The notes under the pieces: model-generated
What the model was told of the DNA's origin: nothing
The model's input: the letters and a program-made list of their open reading frames with translations, nothing else
The model's database searches: none
Sequence record: NC_014662.1
Length of the DNA: 64,000 nt
DNA from: Enterobacter phage CC31
Reading direction: 5' to 3' (one strand)
Made by a program: the position numbers and the translations under genes
In this document: piece after piece, positions 25,364 through 32,079 of the stretch
Layout: each line of letters begins with the position of its first letter
How positions within the stretch are numbered: position 1 is the stretch's first letter

Positions 25364-25582
25364 TTAGACTGCAATAATATTCCTGAAGATTTCAACCTTT
25401 CCACCGCCACGGGTAGCAATGACCTCATGCTTGTTAATTCCGGAAACTCGACCATCTGTAAATGATTCCACTTCACCCTGTGGACGGAATGGTAATTCGA
25501 CCAAACTCTGTGTTACATTAGCGGCTCGTCCTGAGCCTTCACCTGGATGAGCAATTGTGATAATTTCTAAATAGAATTTCAT
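25364..25582 (-). CDS. hypothetical protein
   Basis: 72 aa, ATGA overlap with gene 30 stop. Confidence 0.55.
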   Translation of the reverse strand: MKFYLEIITIAHPGEGSGRAANVTQSLVELPFRPQGEVESFTDGRVSGINKHEVIATRGGGKVEIFRNIIAV

Positions 25583-27027
25583 AGACCAGTTACCTCATGG
25601 AAATCACCCCAGATATCAGCAAACGTATTTGCTACATCTTTATCACGACGCATTTTAATCGCAATAGGCAAGAACAGCTTGACATAATCAGTTCGCCCTT
25701 CAGCAGCTAACCAACCATTACATTCGGATTCAAGAACACCACCGATGTAGTCATTCTTGTTTTCCCAAATTCGAGTTCGGTCTAACTCATGAGCATCTTT
25801 ACCTGGTTTGTCTTTAAGACCTGAACCAGCTTTAACTTTAATCAGACCACATTCGGATTCAAGATAAAAACCACCGGCTTTACCTGGCTGCTTGCTATGC
25901 TCATAGATATCAACAATACGAAGGTCAATCGTAATAACTTCTTTGAACTTATAAAGGTTTTTAGAACGGGTGTTTTCCCAGAAAGCCCCAATGTTCTTCA
26001 GGATAATACCTTCAAGACCTTCATCAACGTATTTGCGATAAATGACCTTAGCTTCATCAAGATTATGAACGATGTGGTTCTCAATCAGAATCATCTGAGA
26101 GTAACCTTGAACCATCAGTTCTAATGCACGGAAGCGAACATCATAAGCAAATCCAGATTGCTTACCTTCGGAATAAACAACATCCAACGGAACGTAATCC
26201 CATACTTGGAATTTCATACCAGCAGCTTCTTTAGCTGAGATAGTTCCTTTCAGAGATTTGTTAGCCAACCCGTTTGACATTGTACGGGATTCTTCTTTGA
26301 ATTCCTTAGCTTTACTCAGCTCGGGTAAATCACCGAAGATATCGTCCAATGGACCAGCTGGGAGAGTGCTTGCATGATAGACGAGTTCACCATCAATCAT
26401 TACACCGCCAGGATGACGTTCACGAGCTTCTTTGGTCATTTCAATGAGTTGTTGTTTTAACAAATCAAGACCAAGATACTCGTTACCCGCTCGGGACAGA
26501 ATTTTTACATCATCTAATTCATCACCACGAACTTCAGCAAATGCTCTGGCACCATCGGCTTTAAGCTGTGCAAATGCAGGGAACTTGATGTTCTTTTCAA
26601 TACCTTTTTCATCATAAGATGAAGCAAGCATCTGTGGCTGTTCGGGAATTAGATTTTTCCATACTTTATTCGCAATACTACGGGATGCGCCACAGCGCAA
26701 ATCACGAAGCAGAACTTTCTTAACAACTTCTGCATCTGCATCAGATGTTTGAGATAAAGCAATTTCAAGTTTTTCCTTTGCGGCATTACCGGTCACAACT
26801 CGCTTAGCTAATTTTTCTTCTAACAAATAAAGCATGTCTTCAAGAGTAAGATGAATATCACCTTTAGGTCTCGTATCCCACTTCTTGATGTAATACTGGA
26901 GCTTGCCATCATAAGTCATTCTGAATACTCGCTTCAGAAGCTCATTATCTTTATGACGACGGATGATAGCTTCTTTTTCTTTGGTAGAGCCAATTGAAGC
27001 AATTTCATTGATAATATCTAAAATCAT
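25579..27027 (-). CDS. 30: ATP-dependent DNA ligase
   Basis: KFPAFAQLKADGAR adenylation motif and long blocks match recalled T4 ligase; start at MILDIINEIASIGSTKEK. Confidence 0.9.
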   Translation of the reverse strand: MILDIINEIASIGSTKEKEAIIRRHKDNELLKRVFRMTYDGKLQYYIKKWDTRPKGDIHLTLEDMLYLLEEKLAKRVVTGNAAKEKLEIALSQTSDADAEVVKKVLLRDLRCGASRSIANKVWKNLIPEQPQMLASSYDEKGIEKNIKFPAFAQLKADGARAFAEVRGDELDDVKILSRAGNEYLGLDLLKQQLIEMTKEARERHPGGVMIDGELVYHASTLPAGPLDDIFGDLPELSKAKEFKEESRTMSNGLANKSLKGTISAKEAAGMKFQVWDYVPLDVVYSEGKQSGFAYDVRFRALELMVQGYSQMILIENHIVHNLDEAKVIYRKYVDEGLEGIILKNIGAFWENTRSKNLYKFKEVITIDLRIVDIYEHSKQPGKAGGFYLESECGLIKVKAGSGLKDKPGKDAHELDRTRIWENKNDYIGGVLESECNGWLAAEGRTDYVKLFLPIAIKMRRDKDVANTFADIWGDFHEVTGL

Positions 27028-27085
27028 ATTCACCTCGTTTATTGTCCCGAGCGGGTATGACAATTATATCATACCCTTTATAAAG

Positions 27086-27316
27086 CTATTGCCCGCGATA
27101 CTCACGAATGAGTTCAGCCAGAGTTCGGTGGTAAAGTACTCCACCATTTTTACGAGTAATGTAGATTGCGCCATTGAACATCGCATCAATCATTTCACGT
27201 TGTTTTTGATTATCAGCATGAATGTTACGCGCCTTGAAGAACTCTTCTTTGTTTGCGAAACTTTCTAAACGCTTAGTTTTGTCAGTTTGCGGGAACCATT
27301 CAATTACGTTAATCAT
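27086..27316 (-). CDS. hypothetical protein (T4 30.1 position)
   Basis: 76 aa ORF. Confidence 0.55.
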   Translation of the reverse strand: MINVIEWFPQTDKTKRLESFANKEEFFKARNIHADNQKQREMIDAMFNGAIYITRKNGGVLYHRTLAELIREYRGQ

Positions 27317-28182
27317 GCTTTACCTATAGTAGTTTTAGCTGTAGGCTGACGATTCAGATATTCGATACCTGTCCCAATTCCGTATCCTACACCTGGATTG
27401 TAAACAGGAAGATTACCTGGATGCTCATACCACGGCTTATAATCAGAAGGACCTGGATTTACCCATTTCTTTGGAAATTCTGGAAACTTATCAAATGGCC
27501 AATTCGGAGTAGTCTTTTCAACCTTTTTGAATAAGTCGCTCAGCTTATCACCGAGGCTTTCCTGGAATTCGCGCTGATTCATCAGACGCTGAACATGTTC
27601 CCAGTTATGCACCTTTTCTCCATATTTAGAGGAGGTGTCTCGCTGACCACGAGGCATAAACATGCAATTGACTTCACCGCCAAAGACTTCATAAGCTGAA
27701 TCTACATGATGAGGAAGGTCATCAATATAAGCAACAACTCTGTCGCCATATTTTTCTTTGATTTTCTCAAAGAGTTTAGTCTTTGGCTCAGCATGGTCAC
27801 AGATGAAAGTTTCAAGGAAAGCACCTGGGAACAAAGCATTCAAGTTGAATTGACGATTCAGTTTAGCATCTACAGAAGTACCAAGTGCCGTTACTGCAAC
27901 GAAGTCATACTTATCTTTCAGAGCATTGACAACCTTCAAAGCATCGTCATACGCAGCCAGATAGCGAATGAAATCTGAGCAATTATATTTGACCATCAGT
28001 TGTTGAGCAAATTCTTCGTCTACACCAAACAAATCTTTTGGAGCAACGAATTGGTCGTCAATAATCATTTCAAGAATGTGATGAACAGGCAGATTGTACT
28101 TCTGAGCGAAGTAAGGCAAGCCTGATTGCCACTTTACTAATACACCGTCTACATCAGTAGAGATAATTGGTTTATTTGACAT
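27313..28182 (-). CDS. HAD-superfamily phosphatase-like protein (T4 30.2 position)
   Basis: 289 aa; N-terminal ISTDVDGVL is a HAD motif I (DxDGV). Confidence 0.65.
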   Translation of the reverse strand: MSNKPIISTDVDGVLVKWQSGLPYFAQKYNLPVHHILEMIIDDQFVAPKDLFGVDEEFAQQLMVKYNCSDFIRYLAAYDDALKVVNALKDKYDFVAVTALGTSVDAKLNRQFNLNALFPGAFLETFICDHAEPKTKLFEKIKEKYGDRVVAYIDDLPHHVDSAYEVFGGEVNCMFMPRGQRDTSSKYGEKVHNWEHVQRLMNQREFQESLGDKLSDLFKKVEKTTPNWPFDKFPEFPKKWVNPGPSDYKPWYEHPGNLPVYNPGVGYGIGTGIEYLNRQPTAKTTIGKA

Positions 28183-28348
28183 TTTTAGCCTTCATTTTAG
28201 CAATCATGTAAGCCGCGATACAAGATTTACCCGGCAGCGATGGTTGTCCAACTCCACTTAATAGAGTAGTTAACTCTCCTACTTTAATACCGCCTTGATT
28301 TAAGCGTTTTAAAACATCAAGACCTTTCATATCATATTTGACTTGCAT
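28172..28348 (-). CDS. hypothetical small protein (58 aa), not in ORF track
   Basis: Hand-translated MQVKYDMKGLDVLKRLNQGG...AKMKAKNVK; stop overlaps the start of the downstream gene; conflicts with ORF-track ORF 28327..28548. Confidence 0.35.
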   Translation of the reverse strand: MQVKYDMKGLDVLKRLNQGGIKVGELTTLLSGVGQPSLPGKSCIAAYMIAKMKAKNVK

Positions 28349-28495
28349 AACATTTTCTCAAAGGTTGCGATACTGTTAGCTGGGCCACTTAGAGTTATCT
28401 CTATGAACCCAGGCTGACTTGAAGGACCAATTCTGTATATACATATGGCTAATGTTCTTGCGTATTCCAGAAGGTCCTTCGTTAACCCTCTTACA

Positions 28496-28699
28496 TTAAA
28501 CTGTTTCATAAATTTCGTCATTAGCAGCTTTAAGAGGTTCGATTTCACATTCTAAACGAATATCAGTATTCCCATCAACCCATTGTACTTCATAAGCAGG
28601 TTGAACACCATATTCTGGGATTGCTTCAGCAGTATCACAGATGACTCCCGGAATACCGCCTTTTCGCAGCTGTACGGCTTGTAAAATGTGGTATTTCAT
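28496..28699 (-). CDS. hypothetical protein
   Basis: 67 aa, ATGA overlap with the upstream small ORF. Confidence 0.5.
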   Translation of the reverse strand: MKYHILQAVQLRKGGIPGVICDTAEAIPEYGVQPAYEVQWVDGNTDIRLECEIEPLKAANDEIYETV

Positions 28700-28863
28700 T
28701 CTGCCACCGCATAAGTTGGAATTTGACGAAAGAAATCAGGGCATTCAAGCTGATACTTAACTTCTGTATCAGAGACAGTTACACCCAGCACTTCAATCAT
28801 TGGATTGCTCAACATGCCGCGTTCAAATTCAGGTGCTTTATTACGAGGAATAGTGATAATCAT
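28696..28863 (-). CDS. hypothetical small protein (55 aa), not in ORF track
   Basis: Hand-translated MIITIPRNKAPEFERGMLSN...; TAATG overlap upstream and ATGA overlap downstream, typical T4 packing. Confidence 0.45.
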   Translation of the reverse strand: MIITIPRNKAPEFERGMLSNPMIEVLGVTVSDTEVKYQLECPDFFRQIPTYAVAE

Positions 28864-29330
28864 TACAGAGTCTCCAATACAGTTTTTACTTTAGCTTCAG
28901 CAACTTGTTTAACAATCAGAACACGAACACCTTCAATCGCGTTGCGAATTTGCTTTTGAGCTTTTTCTGTAGCTTCATCTTCAGTGTAAGGACCAACACA
29001 GAAGGGCGATTGAGAACGACTGGCCGGGATGGTCATCATCCAGAAATCTTTATCTACAGAAGCTTGCTTAACTTCTTCAAGATACTTATGAATATCAGTA
29101 GCCAAGAAGAAGCACCATACTACATTGAATACACCAACATTAGCATGATGAAGTTTACCATCAACATCAATTGCAATAATGTTTCCACCGCCGTCTATCT
29201 TTTTGACTGTAAATGAAGTTAGTCCGTTATTCAACAGCTTAAGAAGTTCATCAGAATAAGAACTTCCACGATTCTTAAGACAAGTAACACCGGATTCAGT
29301 CAGTTTAAACTCTTTATCAATAATGCTCAT
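28863..29330 (-). CDS. hypothetical protein
   Basis: 155 aa with GAGGAA ribosome-binding site. Confidence 0.6.
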   Translation of the reverse strand: MSIIDKEFKLTESGVTCLKNRGSSYSDELLKLLNNGLTSFTVKKIDGGGNIIAIDVDGKLHHANVGVFNVVWCFFLATDIHKYLEEVKQASVDKDFWMMTIPASRSQSPFCVGPYTEDEATEKAQKQIRNAIEGVRVLIVKQVAEAKVKTVLETL

Positions 29331-29369
29331 AACTATTTCCTCAAGTAGAGGGGCCGAAGCCCCTAATTT

Positions 29370-29732
29370 TTAGATTACGAATTCGTTTGAAACGATATCC
29401 CAAATTGCTTCACGTTGTTCTTCAGTAGTTTTGAGGCTGAGAACATGACGCAGATAAAGTTTAACCAGAATTTTACGATTATCACCGTTCCAAGAAGGAT
29501 GAGTTCCTAAATCGCGAGTACGATGATCATCGTGGAAACCAATTGAAATGACTGAACCTTTGAGTTTGACGTCTAAGGTTGGGCCATTTTCAAAACTGAT
29601 GAAGACGTAGTTATCTTCCCAGTACATATCGATTTGAGCAACTGTGCCATTTTTATGTTCCCAGAGTAAAGTTGTTGAAACGTCCCATGCATTATCTTGA
29701 ACGTATTTTCTGTTAAAGTTTGTGAAGTTCAT
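29370..29732 (-). CDS. hypothetical protein
   Basis: 120 aa; preceded by early promoter and ACGGAG ribosome-binding site. Confidence 0.6.
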   Translation of the reverse strand: MNFTNFNRKYVQDNAWDVSTTLLWEHKNGTVAQIDMYWEDNYVFISFENGPTLDVKLKGSVISIGFHDDHRTRDLGTHPSWNGDNRKILVKLYLRHVLSLKTTEEQREAIWDIVSNEFVI

Positions 29733-29766
29733 TTTGTTCTCCGTTGTATCTGTTTGTTTTTGAGTT

Positions 29767-29799
29767 TATATACTAACACATACAACGGAGGATGTAAAC
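29767..29799 (-). promoter_or_regulatory. early promoter (GTTTAC -35, TGTGT-TAGTAT -10)
   Basis: Family member; 18-nt spacer. Confidence 0.6.
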
Positions 29800-29802
29800 G
29801 GT

Positions 29803-30324
29803 TTAGTTCACTTCTGTGAAAATTGTTTGAGGAACTTGCTCGGTTTTGGCAGTTGCAATCATCTTCATAATGGCAGCTTTTCCTTCAATGTTTTTACGCA
29901 AGAACGACTTGCATGCATCATGAGCTTCTTCGGACGTCATAAGCGTAGCTATTGAACGCGCTTCCCCTACTTGGTCCAGATTCAACCAAACGTTTTCTTT
30001 CTTAGTCTGGCCAAAAGCCGCATACATCACTTCAACGGTCTTTTCTTCAGTTTCAATCAGAAAATTTTTAATTTCATTTGAAGTAAACCAAGGACACGAA
30101 TCGCCATTCATACCATCAATATCAGCACCCTTTGGACTTATCCAGCCTTCATTTTCAAATCGGATAAGACCAATAGAACCTGAAGCAATTGCTTCACCCT
30201 TTGCAATGTAAAAAGGTCTGTCACCGATATAATCGGCAATCAATTGATTTACTCGCTGATTGCATCCTTCAGCGAACTTTAAAAAACCTTCTTTGTCTAA
30301 GCGGTACAGAACATCACTTTTCAT
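29803..30324 (-). CDS. hypothetical protein
   Basis: 173 aa ORF in the early gene run. Confidence 0.6.
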   Translation of the reverse strand: MKSDVLYRLDKEGFLKFAEGCNQRVNQLIADYIGDRPFYIAKGEAIASGSIGLIRFENEGWISPKGADIDGMNGDSCPWFTSNEIKNFLIETEEKTVEVMYAAFGQTKKENVWLNLDQVGEARSIATLMTSEEAHDACKSFLRKNIEGKAAIMKMIATAKTEQVPQTIFTEVN

Positions 30325-30348
30325 AGTTTCCTCATAAGGCCCGAAGGC

Positions 30349-30723
30349 CTAGAACATTTTACGTTCGGTCCAGTTATCAAGATTAACTGTGCCAGTTTTC
30401 TTCATTTTCTCAATCAAGTTATCTGCGCGAGTGCGTCCATTTTCATACCACACTACATCTTCAGAATAACCATCTTCGTCTTCATAAGTTTCTGAACGAA
30501 TGTGACCGTGAATGCTTGTTTTCAAAACGTATTCAGAGCCAGTGAACCAGTTAGTCAAAACGATGTACCAGCAGAAATCAGTAGATGGACCATCAGGAGT
30601 CATACAGTGAACTACATCTCCTTGCCATGAAGACAGATGCCACATTGGCTCTTCTACTTCAATTGCTTTATATCCGTCATGGTCTTTCGTTTTGATTTTA
30701 GCGTTCAGATTAATTGTGTTCAT
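30349..30723 (-). CDS. hypothetical protein
   Basis: Trimmed to MNTINLN behind early promoter and ACGGAG ribosome-binding site. Confidence 0.6.
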   Translation of the reverse strand: MNTINLNAKIKTKDHDGYKAIEVEEPMWHLSSWQGDVVHCMTPDGPSTDFCWYIVLTNWFTGSEYVLKTSIHGHIRSETYEDEDGYSEDVVWYENGRTRADNLIEKMKKTGTVNLDNWTERKMF

Positions 30724-30758
30724 TTTATTCTCCGTTACCATATTGGTTATTGAGATTC

Positions 30759-30789
30759 TATCATAACACAACTTTCAACAGATGTAAAC
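30759..30789 (-). promoter_or_regulatory. early promoter (GTTTAC -35, TGTGT-TATGAT -10)
   Basis: Family member. Confidence 0.55.
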
Positions 30790-30791
30790 GG

Positions 30792-30995
30792 TTAGAGTTT
30801 TTCGCAACTATGATATTCAGTATCTGTCCAAATACCAAATGACGGCAATGATTCTAGCATTGAGTTTCCGACTTTAACTGCGTCTTCCCATGGCCAAAGC
30901 GTAGCAACCTTTTCATAGAAAAAGATTGAATCCATGTGTGAATATTCTGCTGGGTATTCTGATGTAACTTTGAAAATAAATTTACGCTTAAACAT
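30792..30995 (-). CDS. hypothetical protein
   Basis: 67 aa ORF. Confidence 0.45.
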   Translation of the reverse strand: MFKRKFIFKVTSEYPAEYSHMDSIFFYEKVATLWPWEDAVKVGNSMLESLPSFGIWTDTEYHSCEKL

Positions 30996-31008
30996 ATGAA
31001 CCTCTTAA

Positions 31009-31036
31009 ACAAAAAAGGGACTCCCGAAGGAGTCCC
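31009..31036 (-). terminator. intrinsic terminator (minus strand)
   Basis: GGGACTCC-TTCG-GGAGTCCC on minus strand followed by TTTTTTGTTT. Confidence 0.65.
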
Positions 31037-31047
31037 GAACTTATGCT

Positions 31048-31227
31048 TTATGCTTTCTTACGTGGATTACCAAAAGCCGTGTCGTGAGCAATAACTTTAC
31101 GAGCACGAGATGCTAACTTATCTGTTAGCTGATTGATACGCTTGTTCGAACCACGCTTGTAGCCAGCGCGTTTAGAGGTACCAACAACTTCTTTTACTGC
31201 AGTTTTTGCTTTAGCTTGTTTAGCCAT
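31048..31227 (-). CDS. small basic protein (59 aa), not in ORF track
   Basis: Hand-translated MAKQAKAKTAVKEVVGTSKRAGYKRGSNKRINQLTDKLASRARKVIAHDTAFGNPRKKA; followed by a hairpin plus U-run terminator; weak ribosome-binding site. Confidence 0.4.
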   Translation of the reverse strand: MAKQAKAKTAVKEVVGTSKRAGYKRGSNKRINQLTDKLASRARKVIAHDTAFGNPRKKA

Positions 31228-31375
31228 TTTTAGTCTTCCATATAAGGAGGTAATAAAAGAGCTCTAAGTCTTAGACAGCTAACCTTTTGCTGACGCATAG
31301 AGCCGTTGTTAATGGAAGTTTTGGATATTTAACGTCTGGATAACTACCAACCACGACCAAGTCCTCGAAGGGTAC

Positions 31376-31630
31376 TTATTTCAAAGTCACTACGAAGTGA
31401 CGAACCGCTTTACGAGCTGCTGAACACAGAGGTTTAGCAAACTTCAACTCATCTTTCAGAGCAAGTGCATCGCGGAGGTCTGCCTGAACAGGATTCAGAT
31501 GTTTGAAACCTTTCAGAACTTCCAGTGCTTCGGCGTAAACGTCGATAGATGCACCGTAGTTTTCGTGACCTGCGTTCCAGGAGTTGCGCTGCAGATGCAG
31601 AGCGTGTTCAAGTTGTTTGTTCATTGACAT
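31376..31630 (-). CDS. rIII: rIII lysis-inhibition accessory protein
   Basis: ~84 aa directly downstream of gene 31 as in T4; late promoter upstream. Confidence 0.6.
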   Translation of the reverse strand: MSMNKQLEHALHLQRNSWNAGHENYGASIDVYAEALEVLKGFKHLNPVQADLRDALALKDELKFAKPLCSAARKAVRHFVVTLK

Positions 31631-31747
31631 TATGTCATTCCTCAATACGAGGTTAATAAAAGGTAGACGGTATCAGAGTTTAATCTATGCGTCTACCACC
31701 TTGTAATTTCTCCGGGTAACTTTTGTCCGGCAGCCAAATTACAATAA

Positions 31748-31755
31748 TATTTATA
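31748..31755 (-). promoter_or_regulatory. late promoter core TATAAATA (minus strand) upstream of rIII
   Basis: Exact consensus immediately after the gene 31 stop. Confidence 0.5.
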
Positions 31756-32079
31756 TCACCCGTAGATACACGGAATTGATTTCCAATGACAAGTCACAAA
31801 TTTTTGTGCAATTTCTTTTGGTTTTTTCATACCAGCAGCGACAAGCGGATGAGGTACATTACGAATCTGACCAGTTGGCAGCGGCACTAACATACCGACT
31901 TCGAAAATACCTTCAGGAACATCCGCGCCGATTGAATATATTTCACACATATCGGGGATTTGTCCGGTTTCTTGTTTGCCGATAACAATACCGCCAGAAG
32001 AAACGATTTCATCACCTTGCTGAGGCGGTTCAGAAACCAAGATAACATGTTCGCCGATAGCTTTAATTGGTAAATCCAT
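31756..32079 (-). CDS. 31: co-chaperonin for GroEL (gp31)
   Basis: [16 protein letters not shown]...GQIRNVPHP...[12 protein letters not shown] match recalled T4 gp31; start at MDLPIK with AAGGTG ribosome-binding site. Confidence 0.85.

What the first reader, a model, noticed from the sequence alone, without database searches (positions are those of the whole stretch)
27086..31227. Variable early region between gene 30 and rIII with about 12 small ORFs including a HAD-like phosphatase
This is the slot of T4 genes 30.1-30.9. It holds tightly overlapping ORFs, two of which (28172..28348 and 28696..28863) are below the ORF-track size cut-off and were found by hand, plus a 289-aa protein with a HAD motif I (DVDGV) suggesting a nucleotidase or phosphatase. 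All functions are unknown.
Basis: inference. Interest (0 to 1): 0.35.

Follow-up and report, generated by a model that had tools for sequence, protein, structure and literature searches.

The report
Phage CC31 accessory early-gene cluster
This stretch is the already sequenced and annotated block of twelve small early genes between the DNA ligase and rIII genes of the T4-like Enterobacter phage CC31; one gene very probably encodes a HAD-type phosphatase (most likely a nucleotidase), and the region is ordinary for this phage family.

Summary
The window is Enterobacter phage CC31. On the minus strand, 27086-31227 carries exactly 12 ORFs between gene 30 (ligase) and rIII. Eleven are annotated in CC31. 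The twelfth (28327-28509) is annotated in sister phages and has distant homologues. Ten ORFs show pN/pS of 0.02-0.28; w3 and w4 have too few substitutions to test this way.

Five ORFs are orthologues of T4 30.2, 30.5, 30.7, 30.8 and 30.9. One is 30.1-like and one is a relocated 30.4-like gene. T4 30.3 (the anti-DarTG1 NADAR AdfN) and 30.6 are absent. Karamvirus-type genes fill their slots, including two fast-evolving paralogues with no known fold.

Two T4-type early promoters and three C(UUCG)G hairpins organise the cluster. T4 omics data show the homologues are expressed early. "All functions unknown" is out of date for T4 30.3 and 30.5. Low novelty, modest interest.

The parts
27086..27316 (-). 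w1, 76 aa (CC31p202). Sits in the position of T4 30.1 and is weakly 30.1-like, sharing a C-terminal YHR(S/T)LxEL motif.
   Evidence: phrog_13133 at E 2e-44. BLASTP to T4 30.1 gives only E 0.033, and there is no DUF3045 hit. pN/pS 0.07.
27313..28182 (-). w2, 289 aa (CC31p203). Orthologue of T4 gp30.2 and a HAD-superfamily phosphohydrolase with a helical C1 cap (about aa 17-90). Catalytic residues are D10, D12, T98, K134, D154 and D155. The tail (aa ~230-289) is disordered and ends in a conserved GTG-IEYL-x-QPTA motif.
28172..28348 (-). w3, 58 aa (ADB81700.1; CC31p204 by numbering). A small protein restricted to Karamvirus.
   Evidence: phrog_23929 at E 2e-44. Found in 31 phage records, all Karamvirus. 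The frame is kept in the 62%-identical CW742 allele, where pN/pS is 0.59.
28327..28509 (-). w4, 60 aa. Not annotated in CC31 but annotated in sister phages. Together with w3 it fills the slot that holds 30.4 and 30.3 (AdfN) in T4.
   Evidence: The exact protein is annotated in VPA32, KaAlpha and AS6, and in the same 90% cluster in PS49 and COW86c. 37-39%-identical homologues occur in about 98 Klebsiella T4-like phages. phrog_27351 at E 1e-5.
28496..28699 (-). w5, 67 aa (CC31p205). Orthologue of T4 gp30.5.
   Evidence: 41% identity to T4 30.5, E 1.6e-13. phrog_1690. T4 30.5 binds host Ppk and activates bNACHT11. pN/pS 0.15.
28696..28863 (-). w6, 55 aa (CC31p206). DUF7428 protein.
   Evidence: PF24204 at E 3e-17. 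phrog_5769. Homologues at 32-46% identity in other genera. pN/pS 0.13.
28863..29330 (-). w7, 155 aa (CC31p207). A fast-evolving two-domain protein and a paralogue of w9.
   Evidence: phrog_8920. hhalign against the w9 family gives E 3e-6. An iterated HMM merges the two families. The N-terminal half is the most variable coding stretch. pN/pS 0.28.
29349..29364 (-). C(UUCG)G tetraloop hairpin (GGGGC-UUCG-GCCCC) between w8 and w7, with no U-run after it.
29370..29732 (-). w8, 120 aa. Orthologue of T4 gp30.7.
   Evidence: PF06919 at E 8e-59. 52% identity to T4 30.7. pN/pS 0.14.
29770..29803 (-). T4-type early promoter (AACCGTTTACATC ... TGTGTTAGTAT) upstream of w8.
   Evidence: The window has 8 such sites, all on the minus strand, against 1.2 expected by chance. 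This segment is 100% conserved in relatives.
29803..30324 (-). w9, 173 aa (CC31p209). Inserted between 30.8 and 30.7 relative to T4. A two-domain protein with no known fold match.
30338..30349 (-). C(UUCG)G tetraloop hairpin (GGCC-UUCG-GGCC) at the stop codon of w10.
30349..30723 (-). w10, 124 aa. Orthologue of T4 gp30.8. The start is the ATG at 30723, preceded by GGAG.
   Evidence: PF06019 at E 2e-47. 41% identity to T4 30.8. The 124-aa form is the one annotated in relatives. pN/pS 0.07.
30760..30793 (-). T4-type early promoter (AACCGTTTACATC ... TGTGTTATGAT) upstream of w10.
30792..30995 (-). w11, 67 aa (CC31p211). A dispensable small gene and a distant relative of T4 30.4. It is inserted between the 30.9 terminator hairpin and the 30.8 promoter.
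   Evidence: phrog_22802, and phrog_2042 (the T4 30.4 family) at E 2e-4. BLASTP to T4 30.4 gives E 0.006. Absent from fGh-Ecl01 and truncated in PG7. Homologues sit in other slots in other genera. pN/pS 0.20.
31007..31036 (-). Intrinsic terminator: GGGACUCC-UUCG-GGAGUCCC followed by a U-run, downstream of w12.
   Evidence: The same element follows 30.9 in T4 and in fGh-Ecl01.
31048..31227 (-). w12, 59 aa. Orthologue of T4 gp30.9, a very basic protein.
   Evidence: 62% identity to T4 30.9, E 5e-14. phrog_1427. UniProt names it 'Uncharacterized protein 30.9'. pN/pS 0.14.

Best explanation
The interval is the phage CC31 version of the T4 30.1-30.9 hyperplastic region. It is a block of non-structural accessory genes transcribed early, leftwards from rIII towards the ligase gene.

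Shown. There are twelve real protein-coding genes. A conserved backbone (30.9, 30.8, 30.7, 30.5, 30.2 and a 30.1-like gene) alternates with four slots whose content differs between genera. Two T4-type early promoters and three C(UUCG)G hairpins, one of them a terminator, divide the block into units. One gene, w11, sits exactly between a terminator hairpin and an early promoter that lie next to each other in T4 and in a sister phage. This is the pattern expected if promoter/stem-loop cassettes (PeSL-like) serve as recombination points for gene shuffling.

Shown by sequence and predicted structure. The 289-aa protein is the gp30.2 orthologue and a capped (C1) HAD-superfamily enzyme with a complete DxDxV / T / K / DD catalytic set.

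Inferred. gp30.2 forms an aspartyl-phosphate intermediate on D10 with Mg2+ and dephosphorylates a small phospho-metabolite. The most likely substrates are (deoxy)nucleoside monophosphates, so the enzyme would trim or clean the nucleotide pool during infection. The other genes act on the host: w5 probably binds host polyphosphate kinase as T4 gp30.5 does, and the variable-slot genes w3, w4, w7, w9 and w11 are candidates for host-specific takeover or counter-defence.
For: Identity and synteny. Exact protein matches to CC31. Flanks are gene 30 and rIII, and five ORFs are T4 orthologues.

Coding. pN/pS is 0.02-0.28 for ten ORFs. w3 keeps its frame in a diverged allele. w4 has distant homologues.

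Variability. In 30 loci the interval spans 2.6-5.0 kb, with slot-wise replacement of genes. T4 30.3 and 30.6 are absent from the whole window.

Regulation. Eight sites match GTTTAC-N15-19-TANNAT, all on the minus strand, against 1.2 expected. Two of them are in the region. The hairpin and promoter are adjacent in fGh-Ecl01 and in T4. The PeSL concept is from PMC2839356 and PMC4122927.

Expression of homologues. T4 30.4-30.8 are early in both RNA and protein. T4 30.1 and 30.2 are early in RNA and middle in protein (PMC9697503 supplements).

Precedent. T5 Dmp carries HAD-type motifs I and IV and is a phage dNMP 5'-phosphatase.

Host-directed neighbours. T4 gp30.3 is AdfN. T4 gp30.5 binds Ppk.
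Against: The window protein gives no hit to any curated Pfam or NCBIfam HAD or NT5C model, even at E up to 1. Family assignment below the superfamily level therefore rests on weak scores.

Fold matches do not discriminate substrate. Dehalogenases, beta-phosphoglucomutases and sugar phosphatases score as well as nucleotidases.

T-even-type phages recycle host dNMPs into their own DNA, so a broad dNMPase would be costly.

No experimental work on gp30.2 turned up in two literature searches.

The promoters and the terminator are consensus matches only. CC31 transcription was not measured.

The roles proposed for w3, w4, w7, w9 and w11 are inferred only from their position, their rate of evolution and the T4 precedent.
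Confidence: 0.8

Rival explanations
1. gp30.2 is a HAD phosphatase or mutase acting on a non-nucleotide metabolite. Candidates are a sugar phosphate (beta-phosphoglucomutase-like, for example to feed UDP-glucose for hmC glucosylation), phosphoglycolate or pyrophosphate.
Against: The only specific-family signals in sequence point to NT5C and cdN. The gene occurs in 1437 phage records, including KVP40-like Vibrio phages and 230-kb Aeromonas phages. PMC2993671 lists the giant Vibrio and Aeromonas T4 relatives (KVP40, nt-1, Aeh1, 65) as lacking the hmC pathway, so a glucosylation-specific role is unlikely.
Confidence: 0.3
2. gp30.2 is a counter-defence nucleotidase that works like T5 Dmp. It would remove a nucleotide that host immunity uses as a precursor or alarm signal: dAMP for Kongming dITP signalling, or m6-dAMP for PUA-Cal-HAD.
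For: T5 Dmp carries HAD-type motifs (D22-L-D24-G-T and MIDDH) and counters Kongming by depleting dAMP. m6-dAMP released by T-even DenA-dependent degradation of host DNA triggers PUA-Cal-HAD. The adjacent slot in T4 carries a proven counter-defence enzyme, AdfN. hhalign places motifs I and IV of gp30.2 and T5 Dmp in register.
Against: The hhalign score is weak (E 0.025, probability 2%), and the two proteins belong to different PHROGs, 420 and 415. gp30.2 is nearly universal in Straboviridae and under strong purifying selection (pN/pS 0.02). That profile fits a housekeeping gene better than a typical patchy, fast-evolving anti-defence gene. No defence phenotype has been reported.
Confidence: 0.12
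3. gp30.2 is a polynucleotide or protein phosphatase that works with the neighbouring DNA ligase in end-healing, like the HAD 3'-phosphatase domain of T4 Pnkp.
Confidence: 0.06
4. Several of the small ORFs (w3, w4, w6, w11) are chance ORFs or annotation artefacts rather than genes.
For: w4 is missing from the annotation of CC31, Pet-CM3-4 and fGh-Ecl01. w3 and w4 show too few substitutions among close relatives for a selection test. w11 is absent or truncated in some relatives.
Against: w6 is a Pfam family. w4 has 37%-identical homologues in another genus. w3 keeps its frame, with an in-frame codon indel, in a 62%-identical allele. w11 has pN/pS 0.20 and homologues in several genera. All four lie on the coding strand with overlaps typical of translational coupling. 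T4 counterparts of similar size are detected as proteins.
Confidence: 0.04

Closest known systems
Bacteriophage T4 genes 30.1-30.9 (the gene 30 to rIII interval), a hyperplastic region of T4-like phages
   Same: Same flanking genes, strand and order. Orthologues of 30.2, 30.5, 30.7, 30.8 and 30.9 are present. An early promoter precedes both 30.7 and 30.8, and a UUCG-loop terminator follows 30.9.
   Different: 30.3 (AdfN NADAR) and 30.6 are missing. 30.4 is represented only by a distant relative in a different slot (w11). Six genes (w3, w4, w6, w7, w9, w11) have no BLASTP-detectable T4 counterpart. The interval is 4.3 kb against 3.6 kb in T4.
5'(3')-deoxyribonucleotidases of the HAD superfamily (Pfam NT5C PF06941; cdN/mdN, PDB 2jao, 2i7d, 4mum; the 3bwv-like bacterial proteins)
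   Different: Below Pfam's threshold: the window protein gives no hit and the best family member reaches E 0.003. Only 14-20% identity. It carries an extra disordered tail of about 60 residues with a conserved terminal motif. Activity is untested.
Bacteriophage T5 Dmp (deoxynucleoside-5'-monophosphatase, anti-Kongming factor)
   Same: Phage-encoded and expressed before replication, with HAD-type motif I (DLDGT) and motif IV (IDD). hhalign puts the motifs in register.
   Different: No significant sequence relationship (E 0.025) and a different PHROG (415 against 420). T5 discards host dNMPs, whereas T-even-type phages reuse them.
PeSL (promoter-early stem-loop) cassettes of T4-type phages (PMC2839356, PMC4122927)
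   Same: A GC-rich stem-loop followed by an early promoter at the borders of variable genes. An indel of one gene (w11) lies at such a site.
   Different: In the window the two halves are separated by w11. Mobility was inferred from comparing genomes, not shown. CC31 was not among the phages analysed in those papers.
T4 gp30.5 (binds host polyphosphate kinase; activator of the bNACHT11 defence)
   Same: w5 is its positional orthologue, with 41% identity over 58 residues.
   Different: Binding to Enterobacter Ppk or to bNACHT11 was not tested. Which residues mediate binding was not examined here.

Membership tests
HAD (haloacid dehalogenase-like) superfamily, phosphatase branch | Motif I DxDx(T/V), with a nucleophile Asp and an acid/base Asp two residues later | tested here: met
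   D10-V-D12-G-V. Both Asp residues are at least 90% conserved in 40 family members.
HAD (haloacid dehalogenase-like) superfamily, phosphatase branch | Motif II (Ser/Thr), motif III (Lys) and motif IV (DD or DxxxD), in that order along the chain | tested here: met
   T98 and K134 are at least 90% conserved. D154 and D155 are invariant.
HAD (haloacid dehalogenase-like) superfamily, phosphatase branch | Rossmann-like core fold with a cap inserted after motif I (C1 type) | tested here: met
HAD (haloacid dehalogenase-like) superfamily, phosphatase branch | Match to curated HAD profile models at their thresholds | tested here: not met
   The window protein gives no Pfam or NCBIfam HAD hit. Among 40 family members, 13 hit PF00702 weakly (best E 1e-4).
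HAD (haloacid dehalogenase-like) superfamily, phosphatase branch | Mg2+-dependent phosphoryl-transfer activity | not testable with these tools
   Needs an enzyme assay.
NT5C 5'(3')-deoxyribonucleotidase family (PF06941) | Pfam gathering threshold | tested here: not met
   No hit for the window protein. Ten of 40 relatives hit, best E 0.003. The profile against PDB 2jao gives E 0.17.
NT5C 5'(3')-deoxyribonucleotidase family (PF06941) | dNMP phosphatase activity and a base-stacking cap pocket | not testable with these tools
   W18 aligns with the Phe of cdN, but substrate binding cannot be computed here.
T4 gp30.2 family (phrog_420) | Sequence homology and conserved position next to 30.1 and gene 30 | tested here: met
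   phrog_420 at E 2.6e-75. 49% identity to T4 30.2. Synteny in 30 loci.
T5 Dmp family (phrog_415) | Significant sequence homology | tested here: not met
   hhalign E 0.025 with probability 2%. Different PHROGs.
T4 30.1-30.9 region | Location between gene 30 and rIII, on the same strand, with orthologues of the backbone genes | tested here: met
AdfN / NADAR anti-DarT factor (T4 gp30.3) | Presence of a 30.3 / PF08010 homologue | tested here: not met
   tblastn of T4 30.3 finds nothing in the 64-kb window. The slot is filled by w3 and w4.
PeSL regulatory cassette | Stem-loop immediately followed by an early promoter at the border of a variable gene | tested here: inconclusive
   Both elements are present and flank the w11 indel. 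They are adjacent in fGh-Ecl01 and in T4. Recombination at these sites was not demonstrated.

The most novel reading that the evidence does not exclude
gp30.2 would be the Straboviridae counterpart of T5 Dmp: an early HAD 5'-nucleotidase selective for particular nucleotides such as dAMP, dIMP or Dam-methylated m6-dAMP released by degradation of host DNA. Removing them would clean the pool the phage recycles and would also deny nucleotide-sensing defences (Kongming, PUA-Cal-HAD) their precursor or trigger. The conserved C-terminal GTG-IEYL-QPTA peptide would dock the enzyme to a partner, for example the dNTP-synthesis complex.
Probability: 0.12. Interest if true: 0.6.

Novelty: new member of a known kind. 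Interest (0 to 1): 0.25.

Why it matters
The region itself adds nothing new. It is an annotated piece of the published CC31 genome, and the type of region is well described.

Its value is as a set of leads:

1. gp30.2 is found in 1437 phage records, is under strong purifying selection and is expressed in T4, yet no biochemical study turned up in my searches. The evidence points to an active HAD phosphatase. That is directly testable, and it is topical now that nucleotide pools are known to feed bacterial immune signalling.

2. In T4 the slot next to gp30.2 holds the proven counter-defence enzyme AdfN. In CC31 the same slot holds two unrelated small genes, which makes them and the fast-evolving w7/w9 paralogues reasonable candidates for host-specific counter-defence.

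3. The placement of w11 between a terminator hairpin and a promoter is a clean example of gene insertion at a promoter/stem-loop cassette.

Tried and rejected
- Rfam scan of 26900-31800 at E up to 1: only a chance-level sRNA hit inside rIII.
- NCBIfam and PADLOC scans of the ORFs: nothing.
- PDB sequence searches for w2, w5, w8, w10 and w12: nothing significant.
- The AlphaFold-database fold library was not available.
- Building a diverse T5 Dmp profile: the viral-contig scan returned only relatives at 90% identity or more, so the comparison stayed single-sequence and weak.
- Search for MotA-box middle promoters: none on the coding strand inside the region.
- RNA-structure explanation for the hyper-conserved block 28320-28520: z-score only -2.08, so not supported.
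- Possible 30.2-30.1 fusion protein (P0058) as a functional link: it comes from a 1.4-kb metagenome contig and may be a frameshift artefact, so it was given no weight.
- Literature on gp30.2: no paper found. The T4 genome review (PMC150520) is not held.
- Plus-strand ORFs of 78-103 aa inside the region lie antisense to well-supported genes and are not annotated in any relative, so they were treated as spurious.

Full report
**What the window is**

The region's DNA matches Karamvirus phages (PG7, myPSH1140, Pet-CM3-4, VPA32) at 89-95% identity. The proteins of 11 of the 12 ORFs are exact matches to database entries named as Enterobacter phage CC31 proteins (CC31p202-p212) or carrying consecutive CC31 accessions. 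An IMG/VR copy of the 165,540-bp CC31 genome reproduces all 12 ORFs at 100% identity (L037). CC31 (GU323318) was published in 2010 as a T4 relative with hydroxymethylcytosine and glucosylation genes (PMC2993671).

**Check of the observation**

On the minus strand, between gene 30 (ligase, 25579-27063) and rIII (31376-31645 as listed by the ORF listing; relatives annotate a shorter, 255-nt gene), there are exactly 12 ORFs:
- w1: 27086-27316
- w2: 27313-28182
- w3: 28172-28348
- w4: 28327-28509
- w5: 28496-28699
- w6: 28696-28863
- w7: 28863-29330
- w8: 29370-29732
- w9: 29803-30324
- w10: 30349-30723
- w11: 30792-30995
- w12: 31048-31227

w1 to w7 overlap by 4, 11, 22, 14, 4 and 1 nt. All 12 are annotated in Klebsiella phage VPA32.

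One of them is Pfam DUF7428 at E 3e-17. w4 is missing from CC31's own annotation. It is nonetheless annotated in five sister phages and has 37-39%-identical homologues in about 98 Klebsiella T4-like phages.

Against seven Karamvirus relatives, pN/pS is 0.02-0.28 for ten ORFs. w3 and w4 have too few differences for this test. However, w3 keeps its reading frame, with an in-frame codon indel, in the 62%-identical CW742 allele.

**Relation to T4**

BLASTP against the T4 30.x proteins gives:
- w2 = 30.2 (49% identity, E 5e-86)
- w5 = 30.5 (41%)
- w8 = 30.7 (52%; PF06919)
- w10 = 30.8 (41%; PF06019)
- w12 = 30.9 (62%)

w1 occupies the 30.1 position but is only weakly similar to it (E 0.033). w11 is a distant member of the 30.4 family (phrog_2042 at E 2e-4; BLASTP E 0.006), but it lies in a different slot. 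T4 30.3 and 30.6 have no counterpart anywhere in the 64-kb window.

**Variability**

I fetched 30 T4-like loci around 30.7 homologues and mapped their ORFs. The rIII-to-ligase interval spans 2.6-5.0 kb. The backbone is conserved: 30.9, 30.8, 30.7, 30.5, 30.2 and 30.1. Four slots vary:
- Between 30.9 and 30.8: w11, in Karamvirus and one other lineage.
- Between 30.8 and 30.7: zero to two w9-type genes, none in T4.
- Between 30.7 and 30.5: w7-type genes, 30.6, DUF7428 and w11-like genes.
- Between 30.5 and 30.2: 30.4 plus 30.3 in T-even types, w4 plus w3 in Karamvirus, and other unknown genes elsewhere.

fGh-Ecl01 lacks w11. This is the hyperplastic-region behaviour long described for T4-like phages.

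**Regulation**

The pattern GTTTAC-N15-19-TANNAT occurs eight times in the window, always on the minus strand, against 1.2 expected by chance. The longer motif AACCGTTTACATC occurs five times exactly. Two of these early-promoter-like sites lie in the region, upstream of w8 and of w10. They fall in segments that are 98-100% conserved among relatives.

Three C(UUCG)G hairpins follow w8, w10 and w12. The last has a U-run and scores as an intrinsic terminator.

In T4 and in fGh-Ecl01, the 30.9 terminator hairpin is followed directly by the 30.8 early promoter. In CC31, w11 sits exactly between the two. That is the arrangement expected from the promoter-early/stem-loop (PeSL) cassettes proposed to mediate modular shuffling (PMC2839356, PMC4122927). 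Those papers did not analyse CC31, and I did not demonstrate mobility.

I found no CC31 transcription or proteomics data. In T4 omics data, 30.4-30.8 are classed as early in both RNA and protein, and 30.1 and 30.2 as early in RNA and middle in protein (PMC9697503 supplements).

**The HAD-like protein (w2)**

Curated profile libraries give nothing for this protein. A search of 5.8 billion proteins found 105 relatives, essentially all from T4-like phages or metagenomes.

In an alignment of 40 diverse members, D10, D12, T98 and K134 are at least 90% conserved and D154 and D155 are invariant. These residues correspond to HAD motifs I-IV, in the right order. A helical segment of about 75 residues lies between motifs I and II, which makes this a C1 cap.

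From general knowledge of the HAD superfamily, the second Asp in DxD marks phosphoryl-transfer enzymes rather than dehalogenases.

Three results point towards nucleotidases, but none is significant alone:
- The family profile's best PDB hit is mouse 5'(3')-deoxyribonucleotidase, aligned from motif I through the cap to motif II, at E 0.17.
- Ten of 40 members weakly hit Pfam NT5C, against 13 of 40 for the generic Hydrolase model.

I therefore file w2 as a HAD-superfamily phosphohydrolase (high confidence). I describe it as NT5C-like in how it probably works, without claiming it as a member of that family.

The HAD core is found by tblastn in 1437 phage records, including KVP40-like Vibrio phages and 230-kb Aeromonas phages, and pN/pS is 0.02. 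This profile fits a conserved metabolic function better than a patchy counter-defence gene. Several GenBank records already label the homologue 'haloacid dehalogenase-like hydrolase', '5' nucleotidase' or 'putative phosphatase'. No experimental paper on gp30.2 turned up.

**A relevant precedent**

T5 Dmp is a dNMP 5'-phosphatase. It carries HAD-type motifs I and IV (D22-L-D24-G-T and MIDDH). It protects T5 from the Kongming system by depleting dAMP (bioRxiv 10.1101/2024.12.20.629578). In addition, m6-dAMP released by T-even DenA-dependent degradation of host DNA triggers the PUA-Cal-HAD defence (bioRxiv 10.64898/2026.01.15.699771).

The direct similarity between gp30.2 and T5 Dmp is weak. hhalign gives E 0.025 with the motifs in register, and the two proteins belong to different PHROGs. 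I keep a Dmp-like counter-defence role only as the most novel reading that the evidence does not exclude (about 12%).

**The other genes**

'All functions unknown' is out of date for T4:
- gp30.3 is AdfN, a NADAR ADP-ribosylglycohydrolase that counters DarTG1 (bioRxiv 10.1101/2024.07.11.602962). CC31 lacks it, and w4 plus w3 fill its slot.
- gp30.5 binds host polyphosphate kinase and is one of the activators of the bNACHT11 defence (bioRxiv 10.1101/2024.12.17.629029). w5 is its orthologue.

The functions of w1, w3, w4, w6, w7, w8, w9, w10, w11 and w12 remain unknown.

**Unexplained**

A block of about 450 bp (28076-28525) covers the 5' end of w2, w3, w4 and the 3' end of w5. It is 98-100% identical in six of seven relatives, apart from a 92-94% dip inside w3, while the neighbouring genes differ by 4-12%. 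A predicted RNA structure there is only marginally more stable than in shuffled sequences (z -2.08). A recent recombinational spread of this cassette is possible but was not tested.

**Verdict**

The observation and most of the interpretation are correct, but the feature is an annotated, ordinary hyperplastic region of a published phage. The most useful product of this work is a well-supported and testable assignment of gp30.2 as an active HAD phosphatase, probably a nucleotidase. Interest 0.25.

Noticed in passing
window 28327-28509 (-): The 60-aa gene w4 is absent from CC31's own GenBank annotation. It is annotated in sister phages and has 37-39%-identical homologues in about 98 Klebsiella T4-like phages.
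   Followed up: yes
window 28076-28525: This block is 98-100% identical at the DNA level in six of seven Karamvirus relatives (with a 92-94% dip inside w3), although flanking genes differ by 4-12%. RNA folding gives z of only -2.08. Possibly a recent recombinational sweep of the w3-w4 cassette; not resolved.
   Followed up: partly
window 30760-31036 (-); L008 3936-4054; L002 8255-8364: w11 is inserted exactly between the 30.9 terminator hairpin and the 30.8 early promoter. The two elements are adjacent in fGh-Ecl01 and in T4, which is a PeSL-like insertion point.
   Followed up: yes
window 23142, 29770, 30760, 37824, 47116, 47734, 48023, 61395 (all minus strand): Eight T4-type early promoter matches share the consensus GTTTACAT...TGTGTTAnTAT, against 1.2 expected by chance.
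   Followed up: partly
window 31226-31345 (30.9-rIII intergenic): This is the most variable stretch among Karamvirus relatives, with 48-77% column identity and indels. CW742 annotates an extra 40-aa ORF there.
   Followed up: no
w2 residues ~230-289 (window 27316-27495): The long forms of gp30.2 carry a disordered Pro/Trp/Tyr-rich tail ending in a conserved G(T)G-[IV]EYL-x-[QR]PT[AS] peptide. This is also present in T4 but absent from the 196-225-aa short forms. It looks like a docking motif; the partner is unknown.
   Followed up: no
loci L025-L033, L038 at ~740-1960 and L027/L028 at ~1020-1590: Further members of the w7/w9 superfamily (175-221 aa) lie about 3-4 kb upstream of 30.7 in JS98-like and T4-like loci (L025-L033, L038). 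They are absent from the T4 stretch examined (NC_000866 122000-134000).
   Followed up: no
protein P0058 (metagenome contig, 1378 bp): An apparent single-ORF fusion of a 30.2 HAD domain with a 30.1 (DUF3045) domain. It could be a genuine fusion or a frameshift artefact.
   Followed up: partly
window 30724-30771 and 28510-28548: The TTG and GTG-extended ORF forms listed mechanically for w10 (140 aa) and w4 (73 aa) are probably too long. Relatives annotate the ATG starts at 30723 and 28509.
   Followed up: yes
PP212877.1 (Aeromonas phage PS49), locus L005: A phage recorded as infecting Aeromonas hydrophila is a Karamvirus 93% identical to CC31 across this region. The host assignment looks unusual for this genus.
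   Followed up: no
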